Shown here in pieces: positions 12,391-56,243 of a DNA stretch of 64,000 bases. The first letter of the stretch is position 1; each line of letters starts with the position of its first letter. The notes below the pieces were generated by a model. The model saw only the letters and a program-made list of their open reading frames with translations. It searched no databases and was not told the DNA's origin. The stretch is taken from the NCBI GenBank assembly GCA_023411375.1, contig JAEYOW010000050.1:27464-91463 (forward strand), given 5' to 3'. The position numbers and the translations under genes are program-made. Origin of the DNA: Bacillota bacterium (GTDB lineage: Bacteria > Bacillota > Clostridia > Christensenellales > Aristaeellaceae).

Positions 12391-12424
12391 ATTATCTGTA
12401 TCACCTCAAGGGAGGGACGCACCC

Positions 12425-12685
12425 ATGACGGAAATGAACGGAACGACGAAGTTTTCGCCCATTGTGGAAGGAGATCGCGACGCCAGCGCGATTCTTTCGC
12501 ATGTTTACCGCGCGCTGCAAGCCAAGGGATATGACCCCGTCACCCAACTGGTAGGGTATCTCATTTCGGGCGACCCAACGTATATTACCAGCTACGGCCA
12601 GGCGCGCAGCATGATTTGCCGTCTGGAGCGCGACGAGATCATGGAGGAGCTCGTGCGGGTCTACCTGCAGGGGCTTGACGGCTGA
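12425..12685 (+). CDS. ireB: IreB/UPF0297 (YrzL-like) regulatory phosphoprotein
   Basis: 86-aa protein [56 protein letters not shown]...; the UPF0297 family conventionally precedes ruvX. Its stop overlaps the ruvX ATG. Confidence 0.8.
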
Positions 12686-15552: not shown

Positions 15553-17169
15553 ATGATGAACTCGCTTTTCGGCGCGCACAGGCGCTTTTGGCGGGAATCG
15601 CCCTGGCAGAGCAGGGCACACCGCCGCTGGTTTGGGTTTTGCGCCGTTTGCCTTTCCCTGTATATTGGCTATTGCACCTTTTTGGCACAAAGCCCCGTTT
15701 TGAAAGGCGGGATGGACACGGCCGCCTCGCTATGCTGGTTTGTGCTGTACAGCGCTGCGGTTTACGTCCTGTTGCTATGGGCCTGCAAAAGGTTAAGCGG
15801 CGTGCGGCTCAGAAAGAGCGCCGTGGGGGGACGCTATCCGTGGCGCGTATTTTTCATGAGCGCAGGAATTTCACTGGTTGTGCTAGGCTGCGCCTTTGCG
15901 GCCTGCTATCCCGGCGGGGTTAGCTACGATGCGGCCAATCAGTGGCAGCAGGTGCGCACGGGTGAGTTCAACAACTGGCATCCGTTGTTTCACACGCTGC
16001 TGGTCTGGCTCGTCACGCGTGTTTCCTACAGCTATCCCTTCGCGGTGTGCGCGCAGCTCGTTGCCTTTTCGGCGGCAATGGGTTATCTCACATCCACGCT
16101 GTGCCGCCATGGCGTGCCTGCCTGGCTGGCGCTTATTGTGCACGCGCTTGTGACGCTTTCAGCCCCTGTTCAAAATACTTTGATGTATCTGGGCAAGGAC
16201 AGCGCCATGTGTATTGGGGCGCTGGTGCTGTCGGCCCAGGGCGTGAATATGCTTTTTACGCGTGGACAATGGCTCCGCAGGCCGCGCAATGCCGTCGTGT
16301 TCGGGCTTGTGCTTGCCTTTGCGACGTTGGTGCGGCACAACGCCGTTCTGTTTACGCTGCCGCTGCTTTTGGCTGCGATGCTTTGCTACCGTCCCACACG
16401 GCGTTGGGCGGCGCTTTCAGCCGGTGTATTCGCCCTGTGCTCGGCCCTGATTCAGGGGCCGCTTTTTGGCGCTCTGGACGTGGTCTATCCCTCAAACCTG
16501 TTGGAAGAAAGCATCGGCATTCCCATGACCGTTATGGGTAACGCAAAGCAGAAAAACCCGGATGCGCTGGATGAAGAAACAAGCGCTTTTTTGGCAACGC
16601 TGGCGGACGATGAGGCATGGCGGAACACCTACGTGCTTAACGATTATAATTCCATCAAATTTACTTACGACAGGGAACGCATTGCGCATACGCCTCCCGC
16701 GCAGCTTTTGCGTATGACGTTGCATACCGTCGCAAGCGACCCGCGCGGCGCATTTGAGGCCTTTAACGCCGTGACGGACCTGGTCTGGGATGTAACGGGC
16801 CAAAACGAGGGCTATGAAAATGTACGCAACTCGGGTGATATCGAGGAGGCGCGCTACGGTAGCGCACGGCTCAACACCATTGGCAAGGCGGCATCCGCCG
16901 TGCTATCGGCACCGATGAACGCCGCTCCGCTCGCTTACCTGTTTCAAAATATCGGCGTTCAGCTATTGCTGCTGCTGCTTGGCGCGCTTTGGGCGCTGTA
17001 CCGCGTCGGGGTGCGCGCGTTGACGCTTGCCCTTCCGGTGCTGATTTATGACCTTGGCACCATGCTTCTCCTATGCGGCAACGACGCGCGCTTTTTCCAG
17101 TTTTCTATGGCGGTCTGTCTACCGGCCCTTGTCGCGCTTTTGTTTGCGTCCCCGGAGAAGGAGGCGTAA
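15553..17169 (+). CDS. Large polytopic membrane protein (about 11 TM helices plus a ~200-aa loop/domain), possibly a GT-C-like glycosyltransferase or DUF-type; function unknown
   Basis: Hydropathy by eye. A conserved-looking loop ...GGVSYDAANQWQQVRTGEFNNWHPLFHTLL... follows the early TM helices. SD GGGAGGG before the ATG. Confidence 0.6.
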   Translation: MMNSLFGAHRRFWRESPWQSRAHRRWFGFCAVCLSLYIGYCTFLAQSPVLKGGMDTAASLCWFVLYSAAVYVLLLWACKRLSGVRLRKSAVGGRYPWRVFFMSAGISLVVLGCAFAACYPGGVSYDAANQWQQVRTGEFNNWHPLFHTLLVWLVTRVSYSYPFAVCAQLVAFSAAMGYLTSTLCRHGVPAWLALIVHALVTLSAPVQNTLMYLGKDSAMCIGALVLSAQGVNMLFTRGQWLRRPRNAVVFGLVLAFATLVRHNAVLFTLPLLLAAMLCYRPTRRWAALSAGVFALCSALIQGPLFGALDVVYPSNLLEESIGIPMTVMGNAKQKNPDALDEETSAFLATLADDEAWRNTYVLNDYNSIKFTYDRERIAHTPPAQLLRMTLHTVASDPRGAFEAFNAVTDLVWDVTGQNEGYENVRNSGDIEEARYGSARLNTIGKAASAVLSAPMNAAPLAYLFQNIGVQLLLLLLGALWALYRVGVRALTLALPVLIYDLGTMLLLCGNDARFFQFSMAVCLPALVALLFASPEKEA

Positions 17170-17172
17170 GCG

Positions 17173-17934
17173 GTGGCTGTCACCGTGCAAATGCTGTGGA
17201 TCGTATGCCCTCTGGCGTTGCTGGGAGGCTTTGTGGACGCGATTGCGGGCGGGGGCGGGTTGATTTCGCTGCCCGCCTATTATCTGGCAGGTCTGCCCGC
17301 GAGCGTGGCTGCGGGCACAAATAAGCTTTCCGCAACGATGGGAACCGTGCTGGCGGCGTACAATTATAAACGTTCGGGTAAGATAAACCGCGGGGTTGGC
17401 ATTCCCGCCGCTATCGGCGCGCTTGTTTTAAGCGCCATGGGCGTGCTTGTGATGAAGCAACTGCCCGACCGGACGGTGAGGCTGCTGGTTGCTTGCTGCA
17501 TTCCCATCGCGGCTGTTTTTACCCTTCGCGGACGGCGGCAACATGGCTGTTGCAAACAGTTCTCCGCGCGGCGCACGTTGGCTGTCTCGCTCGGTATCGG
17601 TTGTCTGATTGGCTTCTATGACGGGCTGGTCGGGCCGGGAACAGGAACCTTTTTGATTTTACTTTTTGTTCATATTTTTGGCATGGACGATGTGGATGCC
17701 AGCGGCACAGCAAAACTGGTGAATCTGGCAAGCAATGTTGCCGCGCTGACAAGCCTGCTGACGACGGGAGATGTGCTTTTTCTTCTGGGACTGCCTGCCG
17801 GAGTTTGCTCCATGGTCGGAGGCTTTTTGGGCAGCAGGCTGACCATCCGCAGCGGCGGGAAGCTGGTGCGGATGATGATGATATGTGTTTTAATACTTCT
17901 TCTTGCCAAAATGATTACGGATATGTTACAATAA
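17173..17934 (+). CDS. TSUP-family (TauE/SafE) membrane permease
   Basis: Duplicated 4-TM halves with GGGGLISLPAYYLAGLPASVAAGTNKL and a second ...GLVGPGTGTFLILLFV... GTG start at 17173 with AAGGAGG 9 nt upstream. Confidence 0.8.
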   Translation: MAVTVQMLWIVCPLALLGGFVDAIAGGGGLISLPAYYLAGLPASVAAGTNKLSATMGTVLAAYNYKRSGKINRGVGIPAAIGALVLSAMGVLVMKQLPDRTVRLLVACCIPIAAVFTLRGRRQHGCCKQFSARRTLAVSLGIGCLIGFYDGLVGPGTGTFLILLFVHIFGMDDVDASGTAKLVNLASNVAALTSLLTTGDVLFLLGLPAGVCSMVGGFLGSRLTIRSGGKLVRMMMICVLILLLAKMITDMLQ

Positions 17935-17975
17935 AGATTACCGATGAATCCATTGATGCGCGGAGGTGCGATTCG

Positions 17976-18365
17976 ATGACCGAACCCATGCTTGCAAAGG
18001 CGATTAAGCTGACCATTCCCGCTGAGGGGGAGTATGCGCTTGTGGCGCGTATGGCGTTGAGCGGGCTGGCAATGCTCGCCGGCCTCGATGTGGACCTGAT
18101 CGGCGATTTGCGCACCGTAACGGATGAGTGCTGCGACTGTTTGATGCACCAGCCTCTCAGGCCCGCGTGCATTACGGTGGATGCGTGGATTGGCGGAGGA
18201 AGGCTCTTTTTCCGCTTTGGAGCGGAAAAACGTTGTGGGGCGGGCTGCGAGCAGACCTTGCAGATGGATATTACAAAAGGCGTACTGGAAACGCTCATGC
18301 CCGAGGTGCGCCTGGATACGGATGAGGACGGCGTGTTTGGCATTGAATGCTCCATGCCTGTTTAA
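17976..18365 (+). CDS. Cys-rich SpoIIAB/RsbW-like anti-sigma factor lacking a recognizable ATP-lid (G2) motif
   Basis: 129 aa. LTIPAEGEYALVARMALSGLAMLAGLDVDLIGDLRTVTDECCDCLMHQ aligns by eye with the SpoIIAB N-terminal/N-box region (ARVTVASFIAQLD...KTVVSEAVTNAIIHG) with Cys in place of Asn. There is no SGMGF-type G2 box and the protein has 7 Cys. SD GGAGG is 9 nt before the ATG at 17976. It lies immediately upstream of a group-3 sigma gene. Confidence 0.55.
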   Translation: MTEPMLAKAIKLTIPAEGEYALVARMALSGLAMLAGLDVDLIGDLRTVTDECCDCLMHQPLRPACITVDAWIGGGRLFFRFGAEKRCGAGCEQTLQMDITKGVLETLMPEVRLDTDEDGVFGIECSMPV

Positions 18366-18377
18366 GCGGAGGCGGCC

Positions 18378-19118
18378 ATGAATGACGAGCGTTTGATCCC
18401 TTTATTGGAGCAATACGCCATGACCCGCGATACCGCGCTTAGGGACGAGCTGTTTGAGGCCTACCTGCCGCTTGCAAAGGCGGTAGCGCGCAAGTTTATG
18501 GGGCGTGGCGTTGAGCTGGAGGATTTGGAACAGGTGGCGGGCATGGCGCTGTTAAAGGCGCTGGAGAGGTACGAACCGGCGCGCGGTTACCGCTTTGTGA
18601 CCTATGCCGTGCCGACCATCACGGGTGATGTGCGCAATTATTTGCGGGATAAGGGCAGCATTCTGCGTATGCCCCGCGATTCCCGGCAGAAGCTTTATCT
18701 GATGACAAGGGAGCAGGAAAGGTTTGAGGCGGAGCATCTGCGCGCGCCTACGGCTACCGAGCTTGCTCTGCGCATGCATATTTCTGCCGACGAGCTGCTG
18801 ATGCTGCTCAGCCTGCGGGCGCAGACAGATACGGTTTCCCTGGACGCCCCTGTGGGCGAGGATGGCGACGCGATGCTGGAAGGAATGCTGGGCGGCGCGG
18901 ATGCTGGCTATGAGCGCTTTGAGCAAAGCGAATGGATGCAGTGGGTGCTTTCCAAGGTGAACGATTCGGAGCGCCAGCTTTTGACGCTTAGGTACCGGGA
19001 CGGCCTTGGCCAGCGCGAGACGGCCCGGAAGATGGGTGTTTCACAGATGCAGATCTCCAGAATGGAGCGCCGCGTGCTGACCAGGCTGCGCGCGATTGAG
19101 GCGGGCGGACGGGCGTGA
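18378..19118 (+). CDS. Group-3 sigma-70 family factor (SigF/SigG/SigB-like)
   Basis: Region 2 ...YRFVTYAVPTITGDVRNYLRDKGSILRMPRDS... and region 4 ...QRETARKMGVSQMQISRMERRVLTRLR. Confidence 0.9.
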   Translation: MNDERLIPLLEQYAMTRDTALRDELFEAYLPLAKAVARKFMGRGVELEDLEQVAGMALLKALERYEPARGYRFVTYAVPTITGDVRNYLRDKGSILRMPRDSRQKLYLMTREQERFEAEHLRAPTATELALRMHISADELLMLLSLRAQTDTVSLDAPVGEDGDAMLEGMLGGADAGYERFEQSEWMQWVLSKVNDSERQLLTLRYRDGLGQRETARKMGVSQMQISRMERRVLTRLRAIEAGGRA

Positions 19119-19148: not shown

Positions 19149-20657
19149 ATGCAGTCGGATAACAGGCAGCAGCAGGGCGGCGGTTACATGCCCTATACGC
19201 CCGAACAGATGCAACAGTGGCAGCAATCCGGAATGCCGCCTCAAATGACGCCCGATATGATGCAGCAGATGTGGCAGGGGCAGCAGATGTGGCAGCAGAG
19301 CCAGCCGGCGGTACCTCTTCAGCAGATGACGCCGGAGCAGATACAGCAGATGCAGTACGAGGCCTATATGTGGCAGATGCAGCAGATGCCCCCCATGCCT
19401 ACCATGCAACAGCCGCCCGTTCAACCTCCGCGGGGCCGTTCAAAGCCGCATAAAAAGAATAAAGGCGGCGGCGGGGGTATCGGCTCGGTGCTTAAGGTGC
19501 TGGTCGCGCTGGCTGTGGCGGGCGGGGTCGCTTGGTTTTTTCTCAAGGACATGGGCGCCGGCAGTCAGGCCACCGCCCAGATTGAGATGGGCACGCTGGG
19601 TACCTCCTATACCGGGGATGCGCTGATTGTTCGAAACGAAACGGCGTATAACGACGAGGGCGTGCAAAGTATCGATTATGTGGCGCAGGAGGGCAGCGTG
19701 GTTTACCGCGGCGACGTGGTTTGCTACGTCTACTCCACGGGCTATAGCGCTAAGGAAATGACCGCGCTTCAGGATTACCGCGACCAAATCAAGGATTATC
19801 AGCGCACGCTGCTCAAAAGCGAAACGGCCTACGACCAGAAGATGACCAGGCTGGAAGGCGATGTTACCGAGCGCGGCCTGGAGGTTCGCAGTTTGGTACA
19901 AGGGGCGCGCGGTAACCTGACCAATCAGGAAAACATTTTGAAAACGGCGATCACGCAGCGGCAAAACTACTTCCGCAGCAAGTATTCAAGCGATATGCGC
20001 TTAAACCGGCTTTTTGACGACGAGACAACGCAGCAACAGCGCATCGACAGCTGGATTAAGCAGAAGGTCGCCACCCAGGAAAGCATCGTAAGTTTTTATA
20101 CCGACGGCTTCGAGCATGCGCTGACCCCCGCGGAATTTGAGAAGTACACCCCCACGCAGGTGCGCGCGATGATCAACGGTGAAAAACCCGAAGCCTCCAC
20201 CGCGGCGCGCGGGCGCACGGACCTGTACCGGCTGGTTAAGCAAAACAACTATGCGGTGCTCATGCTGGTGCGCGACAATACCTGGAACCCTGTGGAGGGA
20301 ACCACCTACAAGCTGGTGCTGGAGCAGTTTTCAAACACCGTTGTTAATGCGCAGGTTCTATCCTTCACCCGTTCCGGGGGCGAGCTGTTGCTTCGTCTGG
20401 CGGTGATCGGCGATGTTTCGGATGTGCTGTATATGCGTACCTGTCAGGCGCAGCTTGGCGAATATGTGGATTGTATGGTGGTGCCAAGCGGCGCGCTTTA
20501 TGAGCAGAACAACGCTACGGGCGTCGTTATTATTACCGGGGAAAAGCAGCTCTTCGTACCGGTCAACGTGCTCAGGCAGGAGGGCGGCAAGGCGTATATT
20601 TCGGCAATTCAGACCGGTGTTTTAACTGCCGGGCAAACGGTAAGGCTATTCAAATAA
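19149..20657 (+). CDS. Single-pass membrane protein with a Q/M/P-rich cytoplasmic N-terminus and a HlyD/membrane-fusion-like extracytoplasmic domain
   Basis: N-terminus (MQQ/MWQ)n, then TM IGSVLKVLVALAVAGGVAWFFL, then a ~370-aa domain ending ...TGVLTAGQTVRLFK (HlyD_D23-like). Confidence 0.55.
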   Translation: MQSDNRQQQGGGYMPYTPEQMQQWQQSGMPPQMTPDMMQQMWQGQQMWQQSQPAVPLQQMTPEQIQQMQYEAYMWQMQQMPPMPTMQQPPVQPPRGRSKPHKKNKGGGGGIGSVLKVLVALAVAGGVAWFFLKDMGAGSQATAQIEMGTLGTSYTGDALIVRNETAYNDEGVQSIDYVAQEGSVVYRGDVVCYVYSTGYSAKEMTALQDYRDQIKDYQRTLLKSETAYDQKMTRLEGDVTERGLEVRSLVQGARGNLTNQENILKTAITQRQNYFRSKYSSDMRLNRLFDDETTQQQRIDSWIKQKVATQESIVSFYTDGFEHALTPAEFEKYTPTQVRAMINGEKPEASTAARGRTDLYRLVKQNNYAVLMLVRDNTWNPVEGTTYKLVLEQFSNTVVNAQVLSFTRSGGELLLRLAVIGDVSDVLYMRTCQAQLGEYVDCMVVPSGALYEQNNATGVVIITGEKQLFVPVNVLRQEGGKAYISAIQTGVLTAGQTVRLFK

Positions 20658-20678: not shown

Positions 20679-21419
20679 ATGGACGGCGTGGCGCAGAATT
20701 TGTCGGGAAATTCAGATAAAACCCAGCTTCTGGACGAGATAAGCCCTGAGACGCTTGCGCGAAATGTGTCGGACGTATTGGATACTTTAAACAAAAATAA
20801 ATATCAAAATTCTCCCCCGGCCCGCTTGATCGCCGTTACCAAGACGGTAGGTCCATCGGTGATCAACGCCCTCAAACCCTTAAATGTTTTGGATATTGGG
20901 GAAAACCGGGCGCAGGTTGCCATACCGAAGCTGCCAAAAATCGCGCCGGAATTCCGGCTGCATTGGATTGGAAGGTTGCAAACAAACAAAGTTAAATATA
21001 TAATAGAACATGTGTGTATGCTGCATACCTTGGACCGGCTTGCGCTTGCGCAGGAGGTGGACAGGCGGGCGAAGGAGCATGGCATAGTGATGCCGGCCCT
21101 TGTGCAGATTAATATCGCGCGCGAACCTCAGAAGGGCGGAATGGAGCCCGGCGAGGTACTGCCCTTTCTCAGGCGGATGCGCGACTTTTCCGGTATACGC
21201 GTAATGGGTCTGATGGGCATTATGCCGCTTCAGGCATCCGGGGAGGAGCTTACGGCGCTTTTCCGAGGCATGCGGGTCCTGTTTGAACAGCTTCGTGAAG
21301 AGGCTGTGGACGGCGTTGAAATGCGCGAGCTGTCCATGGGTATGTCAAATGATTATGCGATCGCGGCGCGTGAAGGCGCGACGATGGTTCGTATCGGTAC
21401 GGCTCTTTACCGCCGTTAG
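20679..21419 (+). CDS. YggS/YlmE-family PLP homeostasis protein (alanine-racemase-fold PLP-binding)
   Basis: ...LIAVTKTV...WHWIGRLQTNKVKYI...; canonical position upstream of sepF. Confidence 0.9.
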   Translation: MDGVAQNLSGNSDKTQLLDEISPETLARNVSDVLDTLNKNKYQNSPPARLIAVTKTVGPSVINALKPLNVLDIGENRAQVAIPKLPKIAPEFRLHWIGRLQTNKVKYIIEHVCMLHTLDRLALAQEVDRRAKEHGIVMPALVQINIAREPQKGGMEPGEVLPFLRRMRDFSGIRVMGLMGIMPLQASGEELTALFRGMRVLFEQLREEAVDGVEMRELSMGMSNDYAIAAREGATMVRIGTALYRR

Positions 21420-21454
21420 GCTGGGCCGCCGGTATAACATAGGAGGTTCGTCGA

Positions 21455-22513
21455 TTGGGAATCTTTCGCAAGGTCGGAGACTGGCTGACCGAAAAGAGCG
21501 ACCGCTTCATTCGCGGGGAATCTGAAATGTCCAATGGATACTATGGTTCCAGGGAAGCGGAGCAGGCGTACAGCAATATGGGCGCCGAACAGCCCGAGGC
21601 CGACCATGGCGATATGGAGGCCGGGGAAGATACGGGGCATAAGCCTTCCGGCGATCCCTTCGGGTATGGCGGCGGAGAATATGGCGGCAGGGTGCCGTAC
21701 CGCAGCCGGTATGACAGGGAGCGCGAAGCGCAGCAGCAACCCCAGCAGCCGCCGTATCAGCAGCAGCCGTCGGTTCAGCAGCCCATACAGGCGCAGGGCA
21801 TGCAGATGGGAATGCAGCCGCCGGTTCAGCGGCCCATGGCACAGCAGCAGATGAATATGGGGCAGCAGCCCGGCTATGCGCAGGGATACGCGCAGCAGCC
21901 CATGGGCAATGTGGTGCCTTTTCCCGGCATGCAGCGCGGGCAGGACGGTTCTGTTTACGCGCATGTGGAATATATTGTTTTACTGCGTAGCCGGAACGAA
22001 TGTAAGGACGTGATTGCCTATATCAAACTCAACGCGTCCGTGTTTCTCAACATGGAATTTATCGCCAGCGATAATGAACGCCAGCGTTGCGTGGATATGC
22101 TCAGCGGCGCCGCCTATACGCTTGGCTGCGCGCTGAACAAAATTTCGCCTCGGGGCATTTATCTGATCTCCTCACCCTCCGTACGCGTGGTGCTTGATCC
22201 CGCTATGCAGAAATTTGCTTCGGCGCCCGAAGCGCAGGGCTTTGTCAGGCAGCGGTATGAGAACGAGAACTATCAGGGATACAGCGGCTATCAGCAGGGT
22301 GAGGCGGCGCAGGAAACACAGCGCCAGCGGCCTGTTACGGGCTTTTCTTCAGGATCGCCAACCACGCGCTTCCAGGCGCAGGGTACGCAGCGGACGCCGC
22401 CCGCCAGCTTTGGCAGCGTGATGGCGGGCAACGTGACTTCATCCTATTCCCCCGCCGGCGGTATGGGATCGGGCAACGCGCCCACAGGCCGCTATTCTGT
22501 CGGGCCGCAGTAG
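21455..22513 (+). CDS. sepF: Cell division protein SepF with a long Q/P-rich low-complexity linker
   Basis: TTG start at 21455 with AGGAGG 8 nt upstream. The conserved SepF core is ...VEYIVLLRSRNECKDVIAYIKLNASVFLNMEF...; the linker is QQQPQQPPYQQQPSVQQPIQAQGMQMGMQPP... Confidence 0.85.
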   Translation: MGIFRKVGDWLTEKSDRFIRGESEMSNGYYGSREAEQAYSNMGAEQPEADHGDMEAGEDTGHKPSGDPFGYGGGEYGGRVPYRSRYDREREAQQQPQQPPYQQQPSVQQPIQAQGMQMGMQPPVQRPMAQQQMNMGQQPGYAQGYAQQPMGNVVPFPGMQRGQDGSVYAHVEYIVLLRSRNECKDVIAYIKLNASVFLNMEFIASDNERQRCVDMLSGAAYTLGCALNKISPRGIYLISSPSVRVVLDPAMQKFASAPEAQGFVRQRYENENYQGYSGYQQGEAAQETQRQRPVTGFSSGSPTTRFQAQGTQRTPPASFGSVMAGNVTSSYSPAGGMGSGNAPTGRYSVGPQ

Positions 22514-22537
22514 TTCCACTGCGGTGAAAGGAGACAA

Positions 22538-22819
22538 ATGTTAATTTCAGCTATCGTAGGCATTGCCACCTGGATTTTGCAAGCGCTTAGCCTCGTTATT
22601 CTGGTTTATTGCGTCATGACGCTAGTGGTTCCGCAAAATGAGCTTGTCCGCAAGGCCGGCGCTTATATTGAACCGATGCTCGCGCCCTTCAGAAGCCTTT
22701 TGCACCGCATTTTTCCAAAGCTTCGCGGCTTTGCGTTTGACCTTTCTCCCCTTGTTATGTGGCTTGTGATCGACATCGCGATCTGGCTGCTTCGTCTGCT
22801 GAGCCGGATTTTGCCCTGA
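22538..22819 (+). CDS. YggT/YlmG family membrane protein
   Basis: 93 aa with two TM helices; the typical gene after sepF. Confidence 0.85.
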   Translation: MLISAIVGIATWILQALSLVILVYCVMTLVVPQNELVRKAGAYIEPMLAPFRSLLHRIFPKLRGFAFDLSPLVMWLVIDIAIWLLRLLSRILP

Positions 22820-23580
22820 TGCGCGGCGAGGGGGATGCCGCGCAAACGGCAAGGCGGCTTGAGGAGCTCGCTGAACGCGCGGAGAAATCGGGAAGGCCGT
22901 GTTTCACGGGCTTTCTTTCTCCGCCGGAGGCGGAATGGGCCGTAGCCGCCGGCAAAAGGCTGCGGGTCAGGGTTTTGCTCAACGGCGGCTATGAGGATGC
23001 GGAACGCCGCATGGCCTGCTTTTTGCCGGATGAGGCGGAAGCCGGGCCGTTTCCCCTGATTGCGCTGGCGCTTGACTGGCCGCACCAAAGCGCGCCCGCG
23101 CACCGCGACGTGCTTGGCAGCGTAATGGGGCTGGGCGTGAAGCGGCAATGTATTGGGGATATTGTGTTGGAGGCCGGGCGCGGTTATCTATTTGCCGAGT
23201 GCGCGATGGGCGGGCATATTGCGGACGCGCTTATCAGCGCCGGGCGTGTAAAGCTGCGGGTTAGTCAGATGAACGGGCTGCCGCAGCTGACGCTGCCCGA
23301 GGGCGCCGAGGTTAGGGACACCGTTATGACGCTGCGTCTGGATGCGGTGCTCGCCGGTGGTTTTGGTTTGTCCCGCGCGAAGGCGGCCGCACTGATCGAG
23401 GCCGGCCATGTAAAGCTTCGGCACCTGCCCACAGAGCGGGCTGATGCCCGCGTTCAGCCGGGCGACACGATATCCGCACGCGGATTTGGCAGGCTGGTTC
23501 TGGAGGAAGCAGGAACACTCACCAAAAAAGGAAGGATTCCCATCAGGTTGATGCGCTACGGTGAAAAGCGCGGGCGCTAA
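22819..23580 (+). CDS. YlmH-like S4-domain RNA-binding protein
   Basis: ATG at 22819 overlaps the yggT stop (TGATG). C-terminal S4-like ...RLDAVLAGGFGLSRAKAAALIEAGHVKL. Confidence 0.8.
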   Translation: MRGEGDAAQTARRLEELAERAEKSGRPCFTGFLSPPEAEWAVAAGKRLRVRVLLNGGYEDAERRMACFLPDEAEAGPFPLIALALDWPHQSAPAHRDVLGSVMGLGVKRQCIGDIVLEAGRGYLFAECAMGGHIADALISAGRVKLRVSQMNGLPQLTLPEGAEVRDTVMTLRLDAVLAGGFGLSRAKAAALIEAGHVKLRHLPTERADARVQPGDTISARGFGRLVLEEAGTLTKKGRIPIRLMRYGEKRGR

Positions 23581-23617
23581 GGCCATACCAACGACGGAAA
23601 ACGAAAGGAGAATGACC

Positions 23618-24142
23618 ATGGGCTTGACGATCGATGATATCTACGACAAAGAGTTTGCACTCAAGGGCGGCGGATACGACCGCAACGACGTGGATCAATT
23701 TCTGGATGAAATCTGCGACGAAATGACCAACATGCAGGAGCGTATCCAGACGCTGGAGGCCGAACTCAAACAGGCGCAGGCCGCCGCCGAGGCTGCGGCG
23801 GAGGCTGTAAGACCCGTTCCGCAGCCGGTTGAAAAGGCGGAGCCGGCCGTCGCTAAGACAAGCGAAACGCTGGAGAGTATTTTGCTTAGCGCGCAGCGTC
23901 TCGCTGACGAGGCGGTTGAAAACGCGAACCGCCGCGCGGGGGATATCGTCAAAGAGGCGGAGGACAAGGCAAGCCGCATTGTGGACGACGCGCAGGAGGA
24001 GAAAAATACGCTGAGCAAGGAACTGGATTCGCTTAGAAGCGCCGCCGGCGAATACAGAAAGAATTTCCTTGAACTTGTGAATAAGCATAAGCGTATGTTG
24101 GAGGACGAGAACGGCCTGTTTGACGCCGACGGGCAGGAATAA
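23618..24142 (+). CDS. divIVA: DivIVA cell-division / pole-targeting protein
   Basis: MGLTIDDIYDKEFALKGGGYDRNDVDQFLDEI... followed by coiled coil. SD GAAAGGAGA is 6 nt before the ATG at 23618. Confidence 0.9.
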   Translation: MGLTIDDIYDKEFALKGGGYDRNDVDQFLDEICDEMTNMQERIQTLEAELKQAQAAAEAAAEAVRPVPQPVEKAEPAVAKTSETLESILLSAQRLADEAVENANRRAGDIVKEAEDKASRIVDDAQEEKNTLSKELDSLRSAAGEYRKNFLELVNKHKRMLEDENGLFDADGQE

Positions 24143-28857: not shown

Positions 28858-29364
28858 GTGAAATGCGTGCACGAAATCGAGGAAATGTATGAGGATTACA
28901 GCGGCATGGTGCATTCCTTCCTTTTACGGTTGTGCGGCAACCAAGATTTGGCGGAGGAGCTGACGCAGGAAACCTTTTACCGGGCTGTCAAGGGATGGCT
29001 CCATTTTCACAATCAAAGCAGCGTGCCCACCTGGCTGTGCGCCATTGTCAAGCGCCTGTACTGGTCTTCCCTGCGCAAGAAAGCTGCCGCTTCTCTTGAA
29101 ACGGAAACGGAGCCAAGCGTGCCGGACTTTACCGAGCAGCTTGCACGGCGTGACCGGGCTATGGTGGCCCAGCGTTTGTTGCACCGGCTGCCGGAGCCCT
29201 ACCGGGAGGTTTTTACCCTGCGAACCTTTTGCGACCTGACCCACGCCGAAATCGGTGAGCTGTTTGCCAAGAGCGGTCAATGGGCGCGCGTCACCTACTA
29301 CCGTGCCAGGAAAATGTTGGCGGACACCCTGAAGGAGTCTGAGCATGATGAAGATGGACTGTAA
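28858..29364 (+). CDS. ECF (group 4) sigma-70 factor
   Basis: Region 2 ...SFLLRLCGNQDLAEELTQETFYRAVKG... and region 4 ...LPEPYREVFTLRTFCDLTHAEIGELF.... Confidence 0.85.
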   Translation: MKCVHEIEEMYEDYSGMVHSFLLRLCGNQDLAEELTQETFYRAVKGWLHFHNQSSVPTWLCAIVKRLYWSSLRKKAAASLETETEPSVPDFTEQLARRDRAMVAQRLLHRLPEPYREVFTLRTFCDLTHAEIGELFAKSGQWARVTYYRARKMLADTLKESEHDEDGL

Positions 29365-30157
29365 TGTGACCCGGGACTTAATCCCCCTGATGATTGACGG
29401 CGTGGCCAGCGCGGAAAGCATGCGGCTGGTTCAGCAACATCTGGACGAATGCGCCCCCTGCGCGGAGTACTACAATGGAATGAAGTCCACATTGGAGCTG
29501 AATACGCAACGGAATGATGAAGAACGGCAGGCTTTTGACAAAGCCGCACGGCATTTGCGGAGCAGGCGGCGGTGGCGGATCTGGCGCAATGTGCTGATCG
29601 GCATGCTAATCGGCGCGCTGCTTGTAACCGGCGCTTTTACGGGCTGGCGGTATCTGACACAGGACTGCAATACATTGGTCTACTATGGCGAATATGGCGT
29701 TTTTCTATCGCGGTTGTCCGACGGACGCGTTGCTGTTAATGTGGATTTTCGTGGAAGCGATTCATACATGCTGATTGATGTGGAAGAACGCTCGGAAGAG
29801 GGGAACGCGATCCTGTACGTGTGCGCGAAAAGGCCGTTTTTGAGGCGATCTATGAGCATTCCCATGTCCAATTACAGCTGCTTGACCCTCTCTTCGGATG
29901 ATGTGGAGCGTTATGCTGAAATTCGCGAAGGCACGGCAGAGGAATACTACGTGGTATGGCAGAAGGGAATAACCATTCCGGCGGCTTCTGAAGAAATGGA
30001 AACCTATTTTACGCTGGAAGAACAAATCCAATTCTTTCCCTTGCGGGAAACGGCGGATGGCAAGGCGTTAGCCATGAGCAGAGACGACGAAAGGCGGCTG
30101 GCGGAACTCCAATGGGCGCTTTCGGACGCAAGGGAAGCCGTACCTGAATGGCAATGA
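29345..30157 (+). CDS. Zinc-binding (ZAS, HxxxCxxC) anti-sigma factor with a single TM and a ~170-aa extracytoplasmic domain
   Basis: HLDECAPCAEYY; TM WRIWRNVLIGMLIGALLVTGAFTGW. Overlaps the sigma gene's 3' end and has SD AAGGAG. Confidence 0.75.
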   Translation: MMKMDCNVTRDLIPLMIDGVASAESMRLVQQHLDECAPCAEYYNGMKSTLELNTQRNDEERQAFDKAARHLRSRRRWRIWRNVLIGMLIGALLVTGAFTGWRYLTQDCNTLVYYGEYGVFLSRLSDGRVAVNVDFRGSDSYMLIDVEERSEEGNAILYVCAKRPFLRRSMSIPMSNYSCLTLSSDDVERYAEIREGTAEEYYVVWQKGITIPAASEEMETYFTLEEQIQFFPLRETADGKALAMSRDDERRLAELQWALSDAREAVPEWQ

Positions 30158-33422: not shown

Positions 33423-33469
33423 AAGGGGACGCTTCCGGGCGGCATCTGTCCGCCCGGAAGCGTCCCCTT
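33423..33469. terminator. Bidirectional terminator with a perfect 20-bp stem
   Basis: AAGGGGACGCTTCCGGGCGG-catctgt-CCGCCCGGAAGCGTCCCCTT flanked by A-rich and T-rich tracts. The stop codon of the - strand RHH gene lies inside its 3' arm. Confidence 0.8.
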
Positions 33470-33671
33470 ATTCTTCGTCAATCCGCACCACGTCCAGAGC
33501 GGCCTCAATTAAAAGGTTTATCAGCTCGTTACGTGAGCGGTTGGTTTCCGTCGATAAAGCGTCCAAACGGGCGATTGTTTCATCCCGCATACGCACGGAG
33601 ACAACCTTGTGTCCGTCGTCGCCCCTGCGTGTGCTTTTTTTTGTTATTCTGATCTCCCGCGACAAATGCAT
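33468..33671 (-). CDS. Ribbon-helix-helix (CopG/Arc/MetJ-type) DNA-binding protein
   Basis: ...GHKVVSVRMRDETIARLDALSTETNRSRNELINLLIEAALD... (beta-strand, two helices). The start is uncertain: ATG at 33671 (67 aa) or ATG at 33713 (81 aa), neither with a strong SD. Divergent from the GGDEF gene across an AT-rich region. Confidence 0.6.
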   Translation of the reverse strand: MHLSREIRITKKSTRRGDDGHKVVSVRMRDETIARLDALSTETNRSRNELINLLIEAALDVVRIDEE

Positions 33672-33855
33672 CACCCCATTCTCACCAATCGATTGTAGCT
33701 TGACACGAAACATAAAAATATATTAGAATGATGTAGTCAAAATATACTATATATTGTAGTTATGAATAAATGCACAAATAGCGGTACGCCTCAGATACAG
33801 TTACATAAAGCGTAAAGTTTTGCAAGCGGCATTGAAAAAGGAGGAGAATTGGCCT

Positions 33856-35025
33856 ATGAGAGCAAAGACGTCGTATTTGCGGGCCATACGTCTTTTCCTG
33901 GTGCTATTGAGCCTTTGCGCCGCCGTTTTTGGAATTTACTTTTGCTTTGGACAATCGAAGGGGATCAATCGCAGCGGGCTAACGATGCTCAATGAGCTGG
34001 CGCGGCAGCGAAGTTGCGGACTGTGCGTTGCGTTGGAGAGCAAGCTTCAACAGACGCCAAGGGATATAACGGATGCGTTGAAAAATAAGGATGCCACCGC
34101 GCTGGCGGCTTTGAGGCGGGCGGCGGCGGACGCCCGTGTCGGCGGGCTTCTGACGGATGAATCAGGAATAGTGCTTGTAAACCTGCTTAGCGGCGGGGAC
34201 ACCGGTTTGGATCAAAGCGTTTATAATCGCCAGGGGGTGGAACATAGCGAACCGGGCGGCACAGAAACATGGCGGCTGGATGGTGGATTCGTTACCAAAA
34301 CGCCTTTTTTGGATGGGCGGATATCCTTGGTACTGTTCACAAAGGCGGAGTGGATAGCGGAAATTCTTCAGCCAGCCCGGCAGGAAAGGCGGGCGGCGGG
34401 CATTTGCCTCGGCTTTGCGGCGATTTGTCTTGCGGCAGCGTATGTCACCCTGCGAGGTTTTAGTATGGAGGCCGACAGCGCGGCCATGCTTGCAAAGCTT
34501 GAGGAGCAAGGCAGAGAAATTGAATGTCTGCAAGAACGGGTTCGGACGGATGGCCCTACCGGCCTGTACGCCAAGGACGCCACAGAACGGCTGATTGAGG
34601 ACGCTTTAATGGAGAAGAAAAACGGGCTATGCGCGCTGATGCTAATGGATATTGACGACTTAAAGGGAATCAACGACACGCTGGGGCATGCGGCAGGGGA
34701 CCGGGTGATTAAAAGCTTTGCATGCGCCCTGCGGGAGCTGTTTGGCGGAGCGCGTTATATTGTCGGTCGTGTGGGCGGGGATGAGTTCATGGTTTTGATC
34801 AGAAAAATTAAAACGCGGGATCAGGCTACAGTGATGCTCAGGGATGCCGCGTTACGCTTAAGTGATCGAAATACCGGGCGGGAGAACGGTCCCAGTGTAA
34901 GCATCGGAATGGCTGTTGCTTTCGCGGGGGAAACCTCCTTTCAAACGCTTTACCGACAAGCGGATTGCGCTATGTATGATGCGAAAAAACGCAAGGAAAC
35001 AGGATATGCCGTTTTTTGCCCCTGA
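33856..35025 (+). CDS. Membrane-anchored sensor diguanylate cyclase (GGDEF domain)
   Basis: Two TM helices flank a ~150-aa extracytoplasmic region, with a coiled coil and the GGDEF motif VGGDEFMVLI. AGGAGG lies before the ATG at 33856. Confidence 0.85.
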   Translation: MRAKTSYLRAIRLFLVLLSLCAAVFGIYFCFGQSKGINRSGLTMLNELARQRSCGLCVALESKLQQTPRDITDALKNKDATALAALRRAAADARVGGLLTDESGIVLVNLLSGGDTGLDQSVYNRQGVEHSEPGGTETWRLDGGFVTKTPFLDGRISLVLFTKAEWIAEILQPARQERRAAGICLGFAAICLAAAYVTLRGFSMEADSAAMLAKLEEQGREIECLQERVRTDGPTGLYAKDATERLIEDALMEKKNGLCALMLMDIDDLKGINDTLGHAAGDRVIKSFACALRELFGGARYIVGRVGGDEFMVLIRKIKTRDQATVMLRDAALRLSDRNTGRENGPSVSIGMAVAFAGETSFQTLYRQADCAMYDAKKRKETGYAVFCP

Positions 35026-48348: not shown

Positions 48349-48423
48349 CTTGCTACCATAGCAGGAACGGTGGAAATTGCGGACAGCCGCGCTTTTCAAG
48401 CGCGCTGTGAGAGGGAGGGTACC

Positions 48424-49134
48424 ATGCGGGTCTGGCAAAAGACACATCAGGGCTTGGTGCGGGCCAGTAATCAGGACAGCCTGCTTGTGGACGAGCACGT
48501 CTACGGCGTGGCGGACGGTATGGGCGGCCATAAGGGCGGCGAGACTGCCAGCCGCGTGGCTGTTCAGGTGCTGAAAAACGCTCTGCATGGCAAGAAGCCG
48601 GAGGAGCATGCGCTCCGCGTGGGTATCGAGGCGGCAAATCGCCGCGTTTTTGATATGGCCCGGCACGACGGCAACTTGAGCGGCATGGGCACCACCGTTA
48701 CGCTGCTTTGGGAGGACGCCGGACAAGTGCTGATTGGGCACGTGGGAGACAGCCGCGCCTACCGGCTGCGTCAACACCGGCTGGAGCAGATTACGGAGGA
48801 CCACAGCATTGTGGCCGAGCTGATGCGCAATAATGTCATCACCCCTGAAATGGCGAAAAACCATCCCTACAAAAACGTCATTACCCGGGCTGTGGGCATC
48901 GACCCGGCGGTGGTGCCCGATGTGTTTTGCTCGGACAAGCGCGCGGGCGATCTCTGGCTTGTGTGTTCCGACGGCCTTTACAACATGGTCGGCGACGAGG
49001 CGATAGCCGAAGCGTTGGACGTGCTTTCACAGGAGGCGGCCGCAGACCGGCTGCTTGAGCTTGCGCTGGACCATGGCGGAACGGATAATATAAGCTTCGT
49101 TATCTGCCGCGTCACGGAGGTGGCCGCGCAATGA
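48424..49134 (+). CDS. PP2C-family Ser/Thr phosphatase (Stp/PrpC)
   Basis: ...NQDSLLVDEHVYGVADGMGGHKGGETAS... metal-binding Asp motifs. GAGGGAGGG lies before the ATG at 48424. Confidence 0.9.
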   Translation: MRVWQKTHQGLVRASNQDSLLVDEHVYGVADGMGGHKGGETASRVAVQVLKNALHGKKPEEHALRVGIEAANRRVFDMARHDGNLSGMGTTVTLLWEDAGQVLIGHVGDSRAYRLRQHRLEQITEDHSIVAELMRNNVITPEMAKNHPYKNVITRAVGIDPAVVPDVFCSDKRAGDLWLVCSDGLYNMVGDEAIAEALDVLSQEAAADRLLELALDHGGTDNISFVICRVTEVAAQ

Positions 49135-56164: not shown

Positions 56165-56193
56165 ATTTTGAGAAAATGTGATAATTCAGCAAT

Positions 56194-56219
56194 TGAAACC
56201 GCCTAACAATTGTCGCGAC
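56194..56219 (+). promoter_or_regulatory. ECF-type promoter TGAAAC-N16-CGAC (sigmaW/sigmaX-like)
   Basis: Read directly, 25 nt upstream of the second ECF sigma gene. Confidence 0.45.
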
Positions 56220-56243
56220 AAACAAGCGAAGGGGCGTAACCGA

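What the first reader, a model, noticed from the sequence alone, without database searches (positions are those of the whole stretch)
17976..19118. Degenerate, cysteine-rich SpoIIAB-like anti-sigma factor upstream of a SigF/G/B-type sigma, with no anti-anti-sigma (STAS) gene
The 129-aa protein aligns by eye with the SpoIIAB N-terminal and N-box segment. The N-box Asn position is Cys (DECCDCLMHQ). The G1 box is only partly recognizable (EKRCGAG). No G2/ATP-lid motif is present, and the protein has 7 Cys. The usual spoIIAA/rsbV partner is absent: the upstream gene is a TSUP permease only 41 nt away. This looks like a kinase-dead GHKL scaffold that may have been repurposed as a redox- or metal-sensing anti-sigma factor, which would be an undescribed regulatory logic for group-3 sigma factors.
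Basis: inference. Interest (0 to 1): 0.65.

Follow-up and report, generated by a model that had tools for sequence, protein, structure and literature searches.

The report
Kinase-dead RsbW-like anti-sigma factor pair
A small conserved protein next to a stress-type sigma factor gene is a stripped-down anti-sigma factor that has lost all its ATP-binding parts, a design already known from mycobacteria (UsfX) and here found in an unannotated family of uncultured gut Clostridia.

Summary
The 129-aa ORF (17976-18365) is real and conserved. It has 106 close homologues and occurs in 63 species-level MAGs of 'Ca. Limiplasma'-like Clostridia. Its AF2 model (pLDDT 89) matches RsbW/SpoIIAB, and the best structural hit is M. 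tuberculosis UsfX.

The N-box Asn, G1, G2 and 11-16 ATP-lid residues are all missing, so it cannot be a kinase. The residues that in RsbW contact RsbV (here R25, D44, R46, E51) are among the best conserved. The gene lies 12 nt upstream of a SigB/SigF-like sigma gene (18378-19118). The pair has its own conserved sigma-A-type promoter (17903-17932).

No STAS gene lies in the 64 kb window or in 67 clade loci. A distant syntenic relative (L074) carries STAS, anti-sigma, sigma and a separate kinase.

Verdict: this is a kinase-dead anti-sigma factor of the UsfX/RsbW1 class. That logic is already known. The protein belongs to a large unnamed family (786 clusters at 50% identity).

Cysteine enrichment is real (4.8% vs 1.5%). 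However, only C55 and C52 are fixed, and only in this clade. Elsewhere position 55 is C/L/Y/A, and there is no conserved ligand set. Redox or metal sensing is unproven and unlikely to be the family's logic.

The parts
17903..17932 (+). Sigma-A-type promoter of the anti-sigma/sigma operon: TTGCCA, 18 nt, TG-extended TACAAT. It is embedded in the last codons of the TauE gene.
   Evidence: The consensus scan scores 10/12 matches with the TG extension. A -35 and -10 at a fixed 18-nt spacing, with the TG extension, score at least 10 on the ad hoc scale in 66 of 76 loci. This includes L003, where the TauE gene is absent. Function is inferred and was not tested.
17962..17966 (+). Ribosome-binding site (GGAGG) of the small gene, 9 nt before the ATG.
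   Evidence: Read directly from the sequence.
17976..18365 (+). Gene for a 129-aa kinase-dead, lid-less RsbW/UsfX-like anti-sigma factor (stop codon included).
   Evidence: It has 106 homologues of 120-140 aa and occurs in 63 species-level genomes. The AF2 model has pLDDT 89. Foldseek top hits are UsfX, RsbW and SpoIIAB. NCBIfam RsbW matches at E=7.8e-7.
18123..18152 (+). Vestigial N-box helix, residues 50-59 (DECCDCLMHQ). E51 is invariant. C55 replaces the Mg-ATP-binding Asn. C52 is 96% and C53 is 72% conserved in the clade.
   Evidence: Alignments. C53 is shared with B. subtilis RsbW and Mtb UsfX.
18225..18263 (+). Short variable loop, residues 84-96, in place of the G1 box and ATP lid. It is 11-16 residues shorter than in SpoIIAB/RsbW.
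   Evidence: MAFFT alignment with RsbW, SpoIIAB, UsfX and the L074 kinase. These are the most variable columns of the family. pLDDT dips to 77 here.
18279..18308 (+). Conserved helix GVLETLMPEV, residues 102-111. It corresponds to the helix after the G2 box of RsbW (LMETLMDEV). The G2 glycines themselves are absent.
18368..18372 (+). Ribosome-binding site (GGAGG) of the sigma gene. The gap between the two genes is only 12 nt, and in relatives the genes overlap.
   Evidence: Overlapping stop/start in L003, L068 and L074.
18378..19118 (+). Gene for a 246-aa group-3 sigma factor of the SigB/SigF/SigG subfamily. It is the presumed cognate target.
   Evidence: Pfam finds regions r2, r3 and r4. TIGR02980 scores 199 bits, below the 234 cut-off. 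The SigF, SigB and SigG equivalog models score 117-132 bits, far below their cut-offs. It is 75-83% identical across the clade.
17173..17934 (+). Upstream neighbour: TauE/TSUP permease. It is context only, and its 3' end carries the promoter.
   Evidence: PF01925 E=7.7e-46. It is absent from L003, L072, L073, L074 and L075, while the anti-sigma/sigma pair persists there.
19149..20657 (+). Conserved downstream neighbour: a HlyD-like (barrel-sandwich) membrane protein. It is followed by YggS, SepF, YggT, YlmH and DivIVA (20679-24142).
   Evidence: PF12700 E=1.8e-19. Window annotation. The same order is seen in L001, L003, L004, L070, L072 and L074. It is homologous to the L074 protein at E=4e-26.

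Best explanation
The 129-aa protein is a dedicated, catalytically dead anti-sigma factor of the RsbW/SpoIIAB (GHKL) fold. It belongs to the same structural class as mycobacterial UsfX/RsbW1.

Proposed mechanism:
- It is made from a housekeeping-type promoter together with its sigma, and the two genes appear translationally coupled.
- It holds the SigB/SigF-like sigma inactive by stoichiometric binding. It uses the face that RsbW and SpoIIAB use for their partners (R25, D44, R46, E51).
- It has no N-box Asn, no G1, no G2 and no ATP lid. It therefore cannot phosphorylate an antagonist, and any reset step must be done by another protein.
- Release of sigma is most likely brought about by a STAS-type antagonist encoded elsewhere in the genome and controlled by a separate kinase or phosphatase. 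This is the arrangement in mycobacteria and in the syntenic relative L074.

Shown here: the fold, the loss of the motifs, the gene pairing, the promoter conservation, and the absence of STAS in cis.

Inferred: binding to sigma, the identity of the releasing signal, and the existence of a trans-encoded antagonist.
For: Fold:
- The AF2 model has pLDDT 89.
- Foldseek gives UsfX 8ih8/8jzt E=1.5e-7 with TM 0.73 over 128 of 129 columns, then RsbW 6m36 and SpoIIAB 1tid/1l0o.

Sequence:
- RsbW models match at E=7.8e-7.
- The family profile matches RsbW at 1.4e-7 and UsfX at 5.5e-6.

Motif loss:
- N-box Asn is replaced by Cys. G1 DxGxG is replaced by AEKRC, which is variable in the family. The lid is shortened by 11-16 residues. 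The G2 glycines are gone.

Partner face kept:
- RsbW residues that H-bond RsbV are R23, D42, K44/S48, E49 and Y118 (PMC7340262).
- Their equivalents here are among the best conserved positions. E51 is invariant and R25 and D44 are at least 90% conserved in the wide family. Position 46 is R in the clade (85%) and mostly K in the wider family. R25 aligns with SpoIIAB R20.

Pairing with a sigma:
- A SigB/F/G-type sigma lies immediately downstream in every locus that could be read: L001-L004, L068-L075, and 55 of the 67 Asn-less homologues in L068-L155.
- In those 88 loci, homologues that keep the N-box Asn are never next to a sigma (0/28). Those without it mostly are.

Promoter:
- A conserved sigma-A-type promoter precedes the pair.

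Ancestral module:
- L074 has the same downstream synteny: HlyD-like, YggS, SepF, YggT, and DivIVA further on.
- It carries a STAS gene (with the DSTG motif), an Asn-less anti-sigma, a sigma, and a separate kinase with N, G1 and G2 boxes.
- L123 and L133 have the same parts.

Precedent:
[quoted passage not shown] Its antagonists RsfA and RsfB are encoded elsewhere, and RsbW2 is the separate kinase (PMC7693655).
Against: - No STAS gene is present in the 64 kb window or in any of the 67 clade loci (about 785 kb). The trans-antagonist step is therefore pure inference.
- The rest of the genome could not be searched.
- No binding data exist for any member.
- R25 is only 81% conserved within the clade, with T or S in some members.
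- UsfX has been reported to have unusual nucleotide-binding properties. This rests only on the title of Malik et al. 2008, cited in PMC7693655, so 'no nucleotide binding at all' is not proven.
- The marked Cys enrichment is not explained by this model.
Confidence: 0.7

Rival explanations
1. Direct thiol or metal sensor. The vestigial ATP pocket, lined by C52, C53 and C55, together with other cysteines binds a metal or forms disulfides on oxidation. This would change the fold and release sigma without any STAS antagonist.
For: - The protein has 7 Cys in 129 aa.
- Clade mean Cys content is 4.84% and the wider family 3.36%, against 1.54% in 47 window proteins and 0.18% in the cognate sigma.
- C55 is 100% and C52 is 96% conserved in the clade.
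- No STAS is present in cis.
- Asn-less homologues without a nearby STAS are richer in Cys than those with one: 3.2% vs 0.8%, Mann-Whitney p=0.0007.
- The hosts are presumably strict gut anaerobes, for which an oxidant signal would make sense. This last point is inference.
Against: - There is no conserved set of 3-4 ligands. All Cys other than C52 and C55 float: C53 72%, C125 57%, C79 32%, the rest under 25%.
- In the wider family position 55 is C 46%, L 27%, then Y/A/I/F/S/M, and position 52 is Ala. This is the pattern of a buried packing residue.
- C53 is ancestral and is also present in B. subtilis RsbW and Mtb UsfX.
- Loop Cys pairs do not co-occur with C55 (15% vs 15%).
- The Cys/STAS association is confounded by lineage. 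STAS-less environmental members average about 1.5% Cys, and the Clostridial branch about 3.4% (figures worked out by hand from the per-locus values).
- There is no HxxxCxxC motif and no zf-HC2 hit.
Confidence: 0.15
2. An anti-sigma with no dedicated antagonist. Sigma activity would be set by the relative synthesis or turnover of the two proteins, for example through proteolysis of the anti-sigma or imperfect translational coupling.
For: - The operon has a housekeeping-type promoter and tight coupling.
- There is no STAS and no second kinase in cis in 67 clade loci.
- The anti-sigma evolves much faster than the sigma: about 45-65% identity against 75-83% across the clade.
Against: - The RsbV-contacting residues E51, D44 and R46 remain essentially fixed. 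That is unexpected if only sigma binding mattered, although the same face may also bind sigma.
- No degradation tag or protease gene is linked to the pair.
Confidence: 0.1
3. Not an inhibitor. The protein would be a degenerate relic, or a positive factor such as a chaperone or stabiliser needed for the sigma.
For: All enzymatic motifs are lost, and every database calls it 'hypothetical'.
Against: - It is conserved at full length in 63 species and in 786 clusters at 50% identity.
- The fold is predicted with confidence.
- The partner-binding residues are conserved.
- The closest characterised structural relatives, UsfX and RsbW1, are inhibitors (PMC7693655).
Confidence: 0.05

Closest known systems
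Mycobacterial UsfX / RsbW1 (Rv3287c, MSMEG_1803), the kinase-negative anti-SigF
   Same: - It is the best structural match (8ih8/8jzt, TM 0.73, 128 of 129 columns).
- The size class is the same.
- The N-box Asn is replaced (R in UsfX, C here), and the alignment around it is gapless.
- The gene lies directly upstream of, and is co-transcribed with, a SigB/F-type sigma.
- There is no adjacent STAS gene, and kinase activity is absent (PMC7693655).
   Different: - Sequence identity is only about 20%. The single-sequence E-value is 0.011 and the profile E-value 5.5e-6, so common descent of the kinase-dead state is not established.
- The host is a Clostridial lineage.
- The protein is Cys-rich (7 Cys, against 2 in UsfX as I recall its sequence).
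- Antagonists (RsfA, RsfB) are known for UsfX and unknown here.
[quoted passage not shown]
Bacillus subtilis RsbW (anti-SigB serine kinase)
   Same: - It is the best sequence match, over the N-terminal strand and helices alpha1-alpha2.
- The RsbV-contacting residues R23, D42, K44 and E49 are conserved here as R25, D44, R46 and E51.
- The EAC Cys is shared.
- The helix LMETLMDEV is conserved.
   Different: - RsbW has the N, G1 and G2 boxes and an ATP lid, and it phosphorylates RsbV. All of these are absent here.
- rsbV lies immediately upstream of rsbW, and there is no such gene here.
- The score of 28.6 bits is far below the equivalog cut-off of 155.
SpoIIAB (anti-SigF/SigG of endospore formers)
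   Same: The fold matches (1tid, 1l0o, 1th8: E about 1e-6, TM 0.71-0.74). R25 aligns with SpoIIAB R20. The position upstream of a SigF-like sigma is the same.
   Different: - Sequence similarity is marginal (E about 1).
- There is no kinase and no spoIIAA gene.
- The sigma scores far below the SigF and SigG equivalog cut-offs (131 vs 321, and 117-128 vs 372-457).
- No sporulation genes were seen in the window.
Split partner-switching modules with a separate kinase (M. smegmatis RsbW1 + RsbW2 + RsfB; locus L074 here)
   Same: L074 shares the downstream synteny and has an Asn-less anti-sigma of the same family next to an orthologous-looking sigma (36% identity, E=2e-53).
   Different: L074 also has a STAS gene with the DSTG motif and a second small GHKL protein with N, G1 and G2 boxes. 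Both are missing from the window and from all 67 clade loci.
Zinc-binding anti-sigma factors (ZAS, e.g. RsrA; Pfam zf-HC2)
   Same: Only the idea of a Cys-based redox switch, plus a C-x2-C spacing (C52, C55).
   Different: The fold is different. There is no HxxxCxxC motif and no zf-HC2 hit. The partner is a group-3 sigma, not an ECF sigma. A genuine ECF + zf-HC2 pair sits elsewhere in the window (28858-30157).

Membership tests
RsbW/SpoIIAB-type (GHKL fold) anti-sigma factors | Bergerat-type alpha/beta sandwich fold like SpoIIAB and RsbW | tested here: met
   The AF2 model has pLDDT 89 and pTM 0.84. All 19 Foldseek hits with E<=1e-3 are UsfX, RsbW or SpoIIAB.
RsbW/SpoIIAB-type (GHKL fold) anti-sigma factors | N-box Asn that binds Mg-ATP | tested here: not met
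   The position is C55 in the gapless alignment, or D54 in HMMER's gapped alignment. No Asn occurs there in any of the 95 clade sequences.
RsbW/SpoIIAB-type (GHKL fold) anti-sigma factors | G1 box (DxGxG) | tested here: not met
   The aligned residues are A83-E-K-R-C, and these columns are variable across the family.
RsbW/SpoIIAB-type (GHKL fold) anti-sigma factors | ATP lid and G2 box (GxGxG) | tested here: not met
   The segment is 11-16 residues shorter than in SpoIIAB and RsbW. The G2 glycines are replaced by D-I-T-K.
RsbW/SpoIIAB-type (GHKL fold) anti-sigma factors | Gene directly upstream of a SigB/F/G-family sigma gene | tested here: met
   The gap is 12 nt in the window. The pairing holds in all clade loci inspected and in 55 of 67 Asn-less relatives.
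RsbW/SpoIIAB-type (GHKL fold) anti-sigma factors | STAS antagonist gene (rsbV/spoIIAA) in the operon | tested here: not met
   None is found in the 64 kb window or in the 67 clade loci. The positive control, L074 STAS, is found at E=5e-10 and 3e-12.
RsbW/SpoIIAB-type (GHKL fold) anti-sigma factors | Binds and inhibits its sigma | not testable with these tools
   This needs pull-down, two-hybrid or in vitro transcription experiments. It is inferred only from the conserved partner-face residues.
NCBIfam RsbW equivalog (TIGR01924 / NF003144) | Score at or above the curated cut-off | tested here: not met
   28.6 and 26.4 bits, against cut-offs of 155 and 145. Only residues 8-54 match.
Kinase-negative UsfX/RsbW1 class | RsbW fold without the N, G1 and G2 motifs, about 130-145 aa | tested here: met
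   UsfX reads DEVCTRLI where this protein reads DECCDCLM.
Kinase-negative UsfX/RsbW1 class | Antagonists (STAS proteins) encoded at unlinked loci | not testable with these tools
Kinase-negative UsfX/RsbW1 class | Common descent with UsfX (sequence-level family membership) | tested here: inconclusive
   Identity is 20-21% in the structural alignment. phmmer gives E=0.011 and the profile gives 5.5e-6. Independent loss of the kinase parts cannot be excluded.
Zinc-binding anti-sigma factors (ZAS, zf-HC2) | HxxxCxxC motif or a zf-HC2 profile match | tested here: not met
   There is no Pfam hit at E<=1. The residue four positions before C52 is V48.
Sporulation SigF / SigG, or SigB, equivalogs (for the sigma) | Score at or above the equivalog cut-off | tested here: not met
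   spore_sigF scores 131.5 against 321. SigG scores 116.8-127.6 against 372-457. Sigma_B scores 129.9 against 315. The subfamily model TIGR02980 scores 199 against 234.

The most novel reading that the evidence does not exclude
In these strictly anaerobic gut Clostridia, the lid-less GHKL anti-sigma factor is itself the sensor. Oxidation of, or metal loss from, the cysteines that fill the former ATP pocket (C52, C53, C55) and of the other 'floating' cysteines would unfold or cross-link the protein. That would free a nearly Cys-free SigB/F-like sigma without any STAS antagonist. It would be the first thiol-switch anti-sigma factor built on the RsbW/SpoIIAB fold.
Probability: 0.12. Interest if true: 0.6.

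Novelty: new member of a known kind. Interest (0 to 1): 0.3.

Why it matters
- The work gives a function to a sizeable family that every source calls 'hypothetical protein' and that has no Pfam family. The family has 786 clusters at 50% identity, is about 125-135 aa long, and is nearly always paired with a SigB/F-like sigma.
- It shows that the 'kinase-dead anti-sigma, with or without a separate kinase' design known from mycobacteria is widespread. That includes abundant uncultured gut Clostridia ('Ca. Limiplasma').
- It provides a simple sequence rule. In the 88 loci sampled, RsbW homologues that keep the N-box Asn sit next to STAS genes and not next to sigma genes. Those that lost it sit next to sigma genes.
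- The unexplained Cys enrichment is a cheap, testable lead for an oxidant-responsive switch in anaerobes.
- It does not reveal a new regulatory principle.

Tried and rejected
1. Conserved metal site. I looked for a fixed Cys/His ligand set and for co-occurrence of C55 with Cys pairs in the loop that replaces the lid. Neither was found.
2. Cys-richness as compensation for loss of STAS. The raw association is strong (p=0.0007), but it follows lineage and not STAS status. I rejected it as evidence.
3. The sigma as a positional SigG or SigF orthologue. Its place upstream of ylm/sepF/divIVA recalls sigG of Bacillus, from my own knowledge. The SigG models score lowest, and no equivalog cut-off is approached.
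4. 'Partial G1 box EKRCGAG'. These columns are not conserved.
5. STAS, PP2C or a second GHKL kinase elsewhere in the window. The only find is a housekeeping-type PP2C + PASTA kinase pair (48370-51068). No STAS and no L074-type kinase were found.
6. Fold search against afdb50. The library was not available.
7. Locus search with the diverse alignment A2.
8. Rfam scan of the window. No matches.
9. Literature on 'Limiplasma'. Only taxonomic or microbiome mentions turned up, with nothing on sigma factors or sporulation.
Full report
**The observation**

The ORF 17976-18365 (+) encodes 129 aa and is preceded by GGAGG 9 nt upstream. The quoted strings are present: DECCDCLMHQ at residues 50-59 and EKRCGAG at residues 84-90. 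There are 7 Cys, at positions 52, 53, 55, 65, 87, 91 and 125.

The upstream gene is a TauE/TSUP permease (PF01925, E=7.7e-46). It ends 41 nt before the ATG. Twelve nt downstream starts a 246-aa sigma factor with regions 2, 3 and 4.

The ORF is a real gene.
- It has 106 homologues at E<=1e-3, almost all 120-140 aa.
- It occurs in 63 species-representative genomes. All are MAGs labelled Candidatus Limiplasma, Clostridia, Oscillospiraceae or Christensenellaceae.
- Its codon-position GC profile is typical of coding sequence.

**What the small protein is**

Pfam finds nothing at E<=1. NCBIfam's RsbW models match residues 8-54 at E=7.8e-7, far below the family cut-off. A profile of 31 homologues finds B. 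subtilis RsbW (6m36, E=1.4e-7) and M. tuberculosis anti-SigF RsbW/UsfX (8jzt and 8ih8, E about 1e-5) among solved structures. SpoIIAB is only marginal.

The AlphaFold model built on that alignment is confident (pLDDT 89, pTM 0.84). All of its significant Foldseek matches are UsfX (E=1.5e-7, TM 0.73, 128 of 129 columns), RsbW and SpoIIAB. The fold assignment is secure.

**Loss of the ATP machinery**

I aligned the protein with RsbW, SpoIIAB, UsfX and a canonical small kinase from locus L074.
- The N-box reads E51-C-C-D-C55, where RsbW has E-A-C-T-N and UsfX has E-V-C-T-R.
- The alignment to UsfX is gapless. That puts C55 at the Asn position.
- HMMER's alignments to RsbW insert a gap inside the helix and put D54 there instead. 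Either way there is no Asn.
- The G1 DxGxG is replaced by A-E-K-R-C, in the most variable columns of the family.
- Between the last strand and the following helix, 11-16 residues are missing relative to SpoIIAB and RsbW.
- The G2 glycines are gone. The helix after G2 is kept: GVLETLMPEV against LMETLMDEV.

The UsfX residues beyond those printed were taken from my memory of Rv3287c. The Foldseek alignment independently shows that UsfX has no large insertion relative to this protein.

**What is kept**

The RsbV-RsbW crystal structure paper lists the RsbW residues that H-bond RsbV: R23, D42, K44/S48, E49 and Y118 (PMC7340262). Their equivalents here are R25, D44, R46, D50, E51 and G102. E51 is invariant, both in the clade and in a 50-sequence alignment of distant relatives. 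R25 and D44 are at least 90% conserved in that wider alignment. R46 is R in the clade and mostly K in the wider family. R25 also aligns with SpoIIAB R20, which from my own knowledge is needed for binding both sigma-F and SpoIIAA. The partner-binding face therefore survives while the enzyme does not.

**The sigma**

It belongs to the SigB/SigF/SigG subfamily: TIGR02980 scores 199 bits against a cut-off of 234. It matches no equivalog: SigF 131.5, SigB 129.9 and SigG 117-128 bits, against cut-offs of 315-457. Among solved structures it is equally close to a 256-aa sigma in 8x6g (107.6 bits), which I take to be S. aureus SigB, and to G. stearothermophilus SigF (102 bits). It is far better conserved across the clade (75-83% identity) than the small protein (45-65%).

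**Context and promoter**

The gene order in the window is:
- IreB, RuvX, DUF1292, GNAT, aspartate kinase;
- a 538-aa membrane protein, then TauE;
- the small gene and the sigma gene;
- a HlyD-like protein, then YggS, SepF, YggT, YlmH and DivIVA.

This order is the same in L001, L003, L004 and L070.

A sigma-A-type promoter (TTGCCA, 18 nt, TG-extended TACAAT) lies at 17903-17932, inside the last codons of the TauE gene. The same elements, at the same 18-nt spacing and with the TG, score well in 66 of 76 loci. This includes L003, where TauE is absent. The pair therefore seems to have its own housekeeping-type promoter. That points to control at the protein level.

**STAS**

phmmer and an HMM built from SpoIIAA, RsbV and the L074 STAS find nothing in the six-frame ORFs of the window. 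They also find nothing in the 67 clade loci, about 785 kb in all. They do find the L074 STAS at E=5e-10 and 3e-12, which serves as the positive control. Precomputed Pfam annotation of L001, L003 and L004 agrees.

Pfam scans of the other predicted genes of the window show no STAS. The only PP2C is part of a housekeeping-type PP2C/PASTA-kinase pair.

**The wider family**

An exhaustive profile search finds 786 representative clusters at E<=1e-3 and 112 at E<=1e-10. Nearly all are 120-140 aa and match over their full length. Every source calls them hypothetical, and a few carry a weak HATPase_c_2 hit.

In these relatives the motif is E-A-C-x-[C/L/Y/A/I/F/S/M]-L, and only E51 is invariant.

The decisive locus is L074. 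It shares the downstream synteny (HlyD-like, YggS, SepF, YggT, and DivIVA further on). Its HlyD-like protein is homologous to the window's (E=4e-26), and its sigma is 36% identical to the window's (E=2e-53). It contains, in order:
- a STAS gene with the phosphorylatable DSTG motif;
- an Asn-less anti-sigma of this family;
- the sigma;
- a second 131-aa GHKL protein with intact N (ELITNGFKHG), G1 (YDGGAGFD) and G2 (ESGRGLV) boxes.

L123 and L133 have the same parts. This is the division of labour described for M. smegmatis. There, RsbW1/UsfX is the kinase-negative anti-SigF, RsbW2 is the kinase, and RsfA (redox-sensitive) and RsfB (phosphorylated) are antagonists encoded elsewhere (PMC7693655). 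The window's pair therefore looks like a reduced version of such a module.

I also surveyed 88 further loci, L068-L155. They were selected through a peptide pattern, so the sample is biased.
- Homologues with the N-box Asn are never next to a sigma (0/28) and usually next to a STAS gene (25/28).
- Homologues without the Asn are next to a sigma in 55 of 67 cases. Of those 55, 14 have a STAS gene within 3 kb.
- Among Asn-less, sigma-linked entries with adequate flanks, 8 of 20 have a STAS gene.

STAS-less pairs are therefore common.

**Cysteines**

The enrichment is real. The protein is 5.4% Cys, the clade 4.84% and the wider family 3.36%. By comparison, 47 window proteins average 1.54% and the cognate sigma 0.18%.

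The conservation pattern does not fit a defined site.
- In the clade, C55 is 100%, C52 96%, C53 72% and C125 57% conserved. All other Cys are under 35%.
- In the wider family position 52 is Ala. Position 55 is C 46%, L 27% and other small or hydrophobic residues. That is the pattern of a buried packing residue.
- C53 is ancestral and is shared with RsbW and UsfX.
- Cys pairs in the loop that replaces the lid occur in 15% of members, whether or not C55 is present.
- Asn-less proteins with a cis STAS are Cys-poor (0.8%) and those without are Cys-rich (3.2%, p=0.0007). This tracks lineage: by my own averaging of the per-locus values, STAS-less environmental members have about 1.5% Cys and the Clostridial branch about 3.4%.

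I could not inspect the model coordinates, so spatial clustering of the cysteines is untested.

**Conclusion**

The best explanation is a kinase-dead, lid-less RsbW/UsfX-class anti-sigma factor. It is co-expressed with, and presumably sequesters, a SigB/F-like sigma. The releasing partner is most likely a STAS protein encoded elsewhere. That step is inferred from relatives and from conserved contact residues, and is not shown.

A direct thiol or metal switch remains possible, at about 0.12-0.15, but the conservation pattern does not support it.

The system is a new, unannotated member of a known kind and not a new regulatory logic.

Noticed in passing
window 17903-17932: A sigma-A-type extended -10 promoter for the anti-sigma/sigma operon is encoded within the last codons of the upstream TauE permease gene. 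It is kept at a fixed 18-nt spacing across the clade, and it survives in L003, where TauE has been lost.
   Followed up: partly
L074 9691-11617: A distant syntenic relative carries a full split partner-switching module: a STAS gene (DSTG motif), an Asn-less anti-sigma, a sigma, and a separate 131-aa GHKL kinase with N, G1 and G2 boxes. L123 and L133 are similar, with two STAS genes.
   Followed up: partly
loci L068-L155: RsbW-like ORFs that keep the N-box Asn are never next to a sigma gene (0/28) and are usually next to a STAS gene (25/28). Those lacking the Asn are usually next to a sigma gene (55/67). The sample is pattern-selected and therefore biased.
   Followed up: partly
window 18378-19118 and homologues P0107-P0226: The cognate sigma is almost free of cysteine (0.18% over 118 homologues), while its partner has 4.8%. 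The asymmetry is unexplained.
   Followed up: no
window 28858-30157: An ECF sigma factor (168 aa) overlaps the start of a 270-aa protein with an N-terminal zf-HC2 (ZAS-type) anti-sigma domain. This is a classical zinc-finger anti-sigma pair in the same window.
   Followed up: no
window 56178-58624: A second ECF sigma (183 aa) is followed by a 632-aa protein with a weak DUF4179 match, probably another anti-sigma factor.
   Followed up: no
window 48370-51068 and 12416-12685: A PP2C phosphatase and a PASTA Ser/Thr kinase lie downstream of priA, def, fmt and rsmB and upstream of rsgA. An IreB phosphoprotein gene lies upstream of the studied operon. In mycobacteria, Hanks-type kinases can phosphorylate STAS proteins (PMC1847690), but no link was tested here.
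   Followed up: no
window 19149-19480 and 21455-22513: The HlyD-like protein has a Q/M/P-rich low-complexity N-terminal extension. SepF is unusually long (352 aa, with the SepF domain only at residues 177-245) and has Q/P-rich flanks. SepF is 301-423 aa in the clade loci L001, L003, L004 and L070.
   Followed up: no
window 15553-17169: A 538-aa polytopic membrane protein with no Pfam match is conserved between aspartate kinase and TauE (531-594 aa in L001, L003 and L004).
   Followed up: no
L074 3307-9691: A 6.4-kb stretch directly upstream of the STAS gene has no called gene. It was not examined.
   Followed up: no
window 33820-35025: A GGDEF-domain protein (401 aa) lies next to a small ribbon-helix-helix protein (33468-33713, minus strand).
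   Followed up: no
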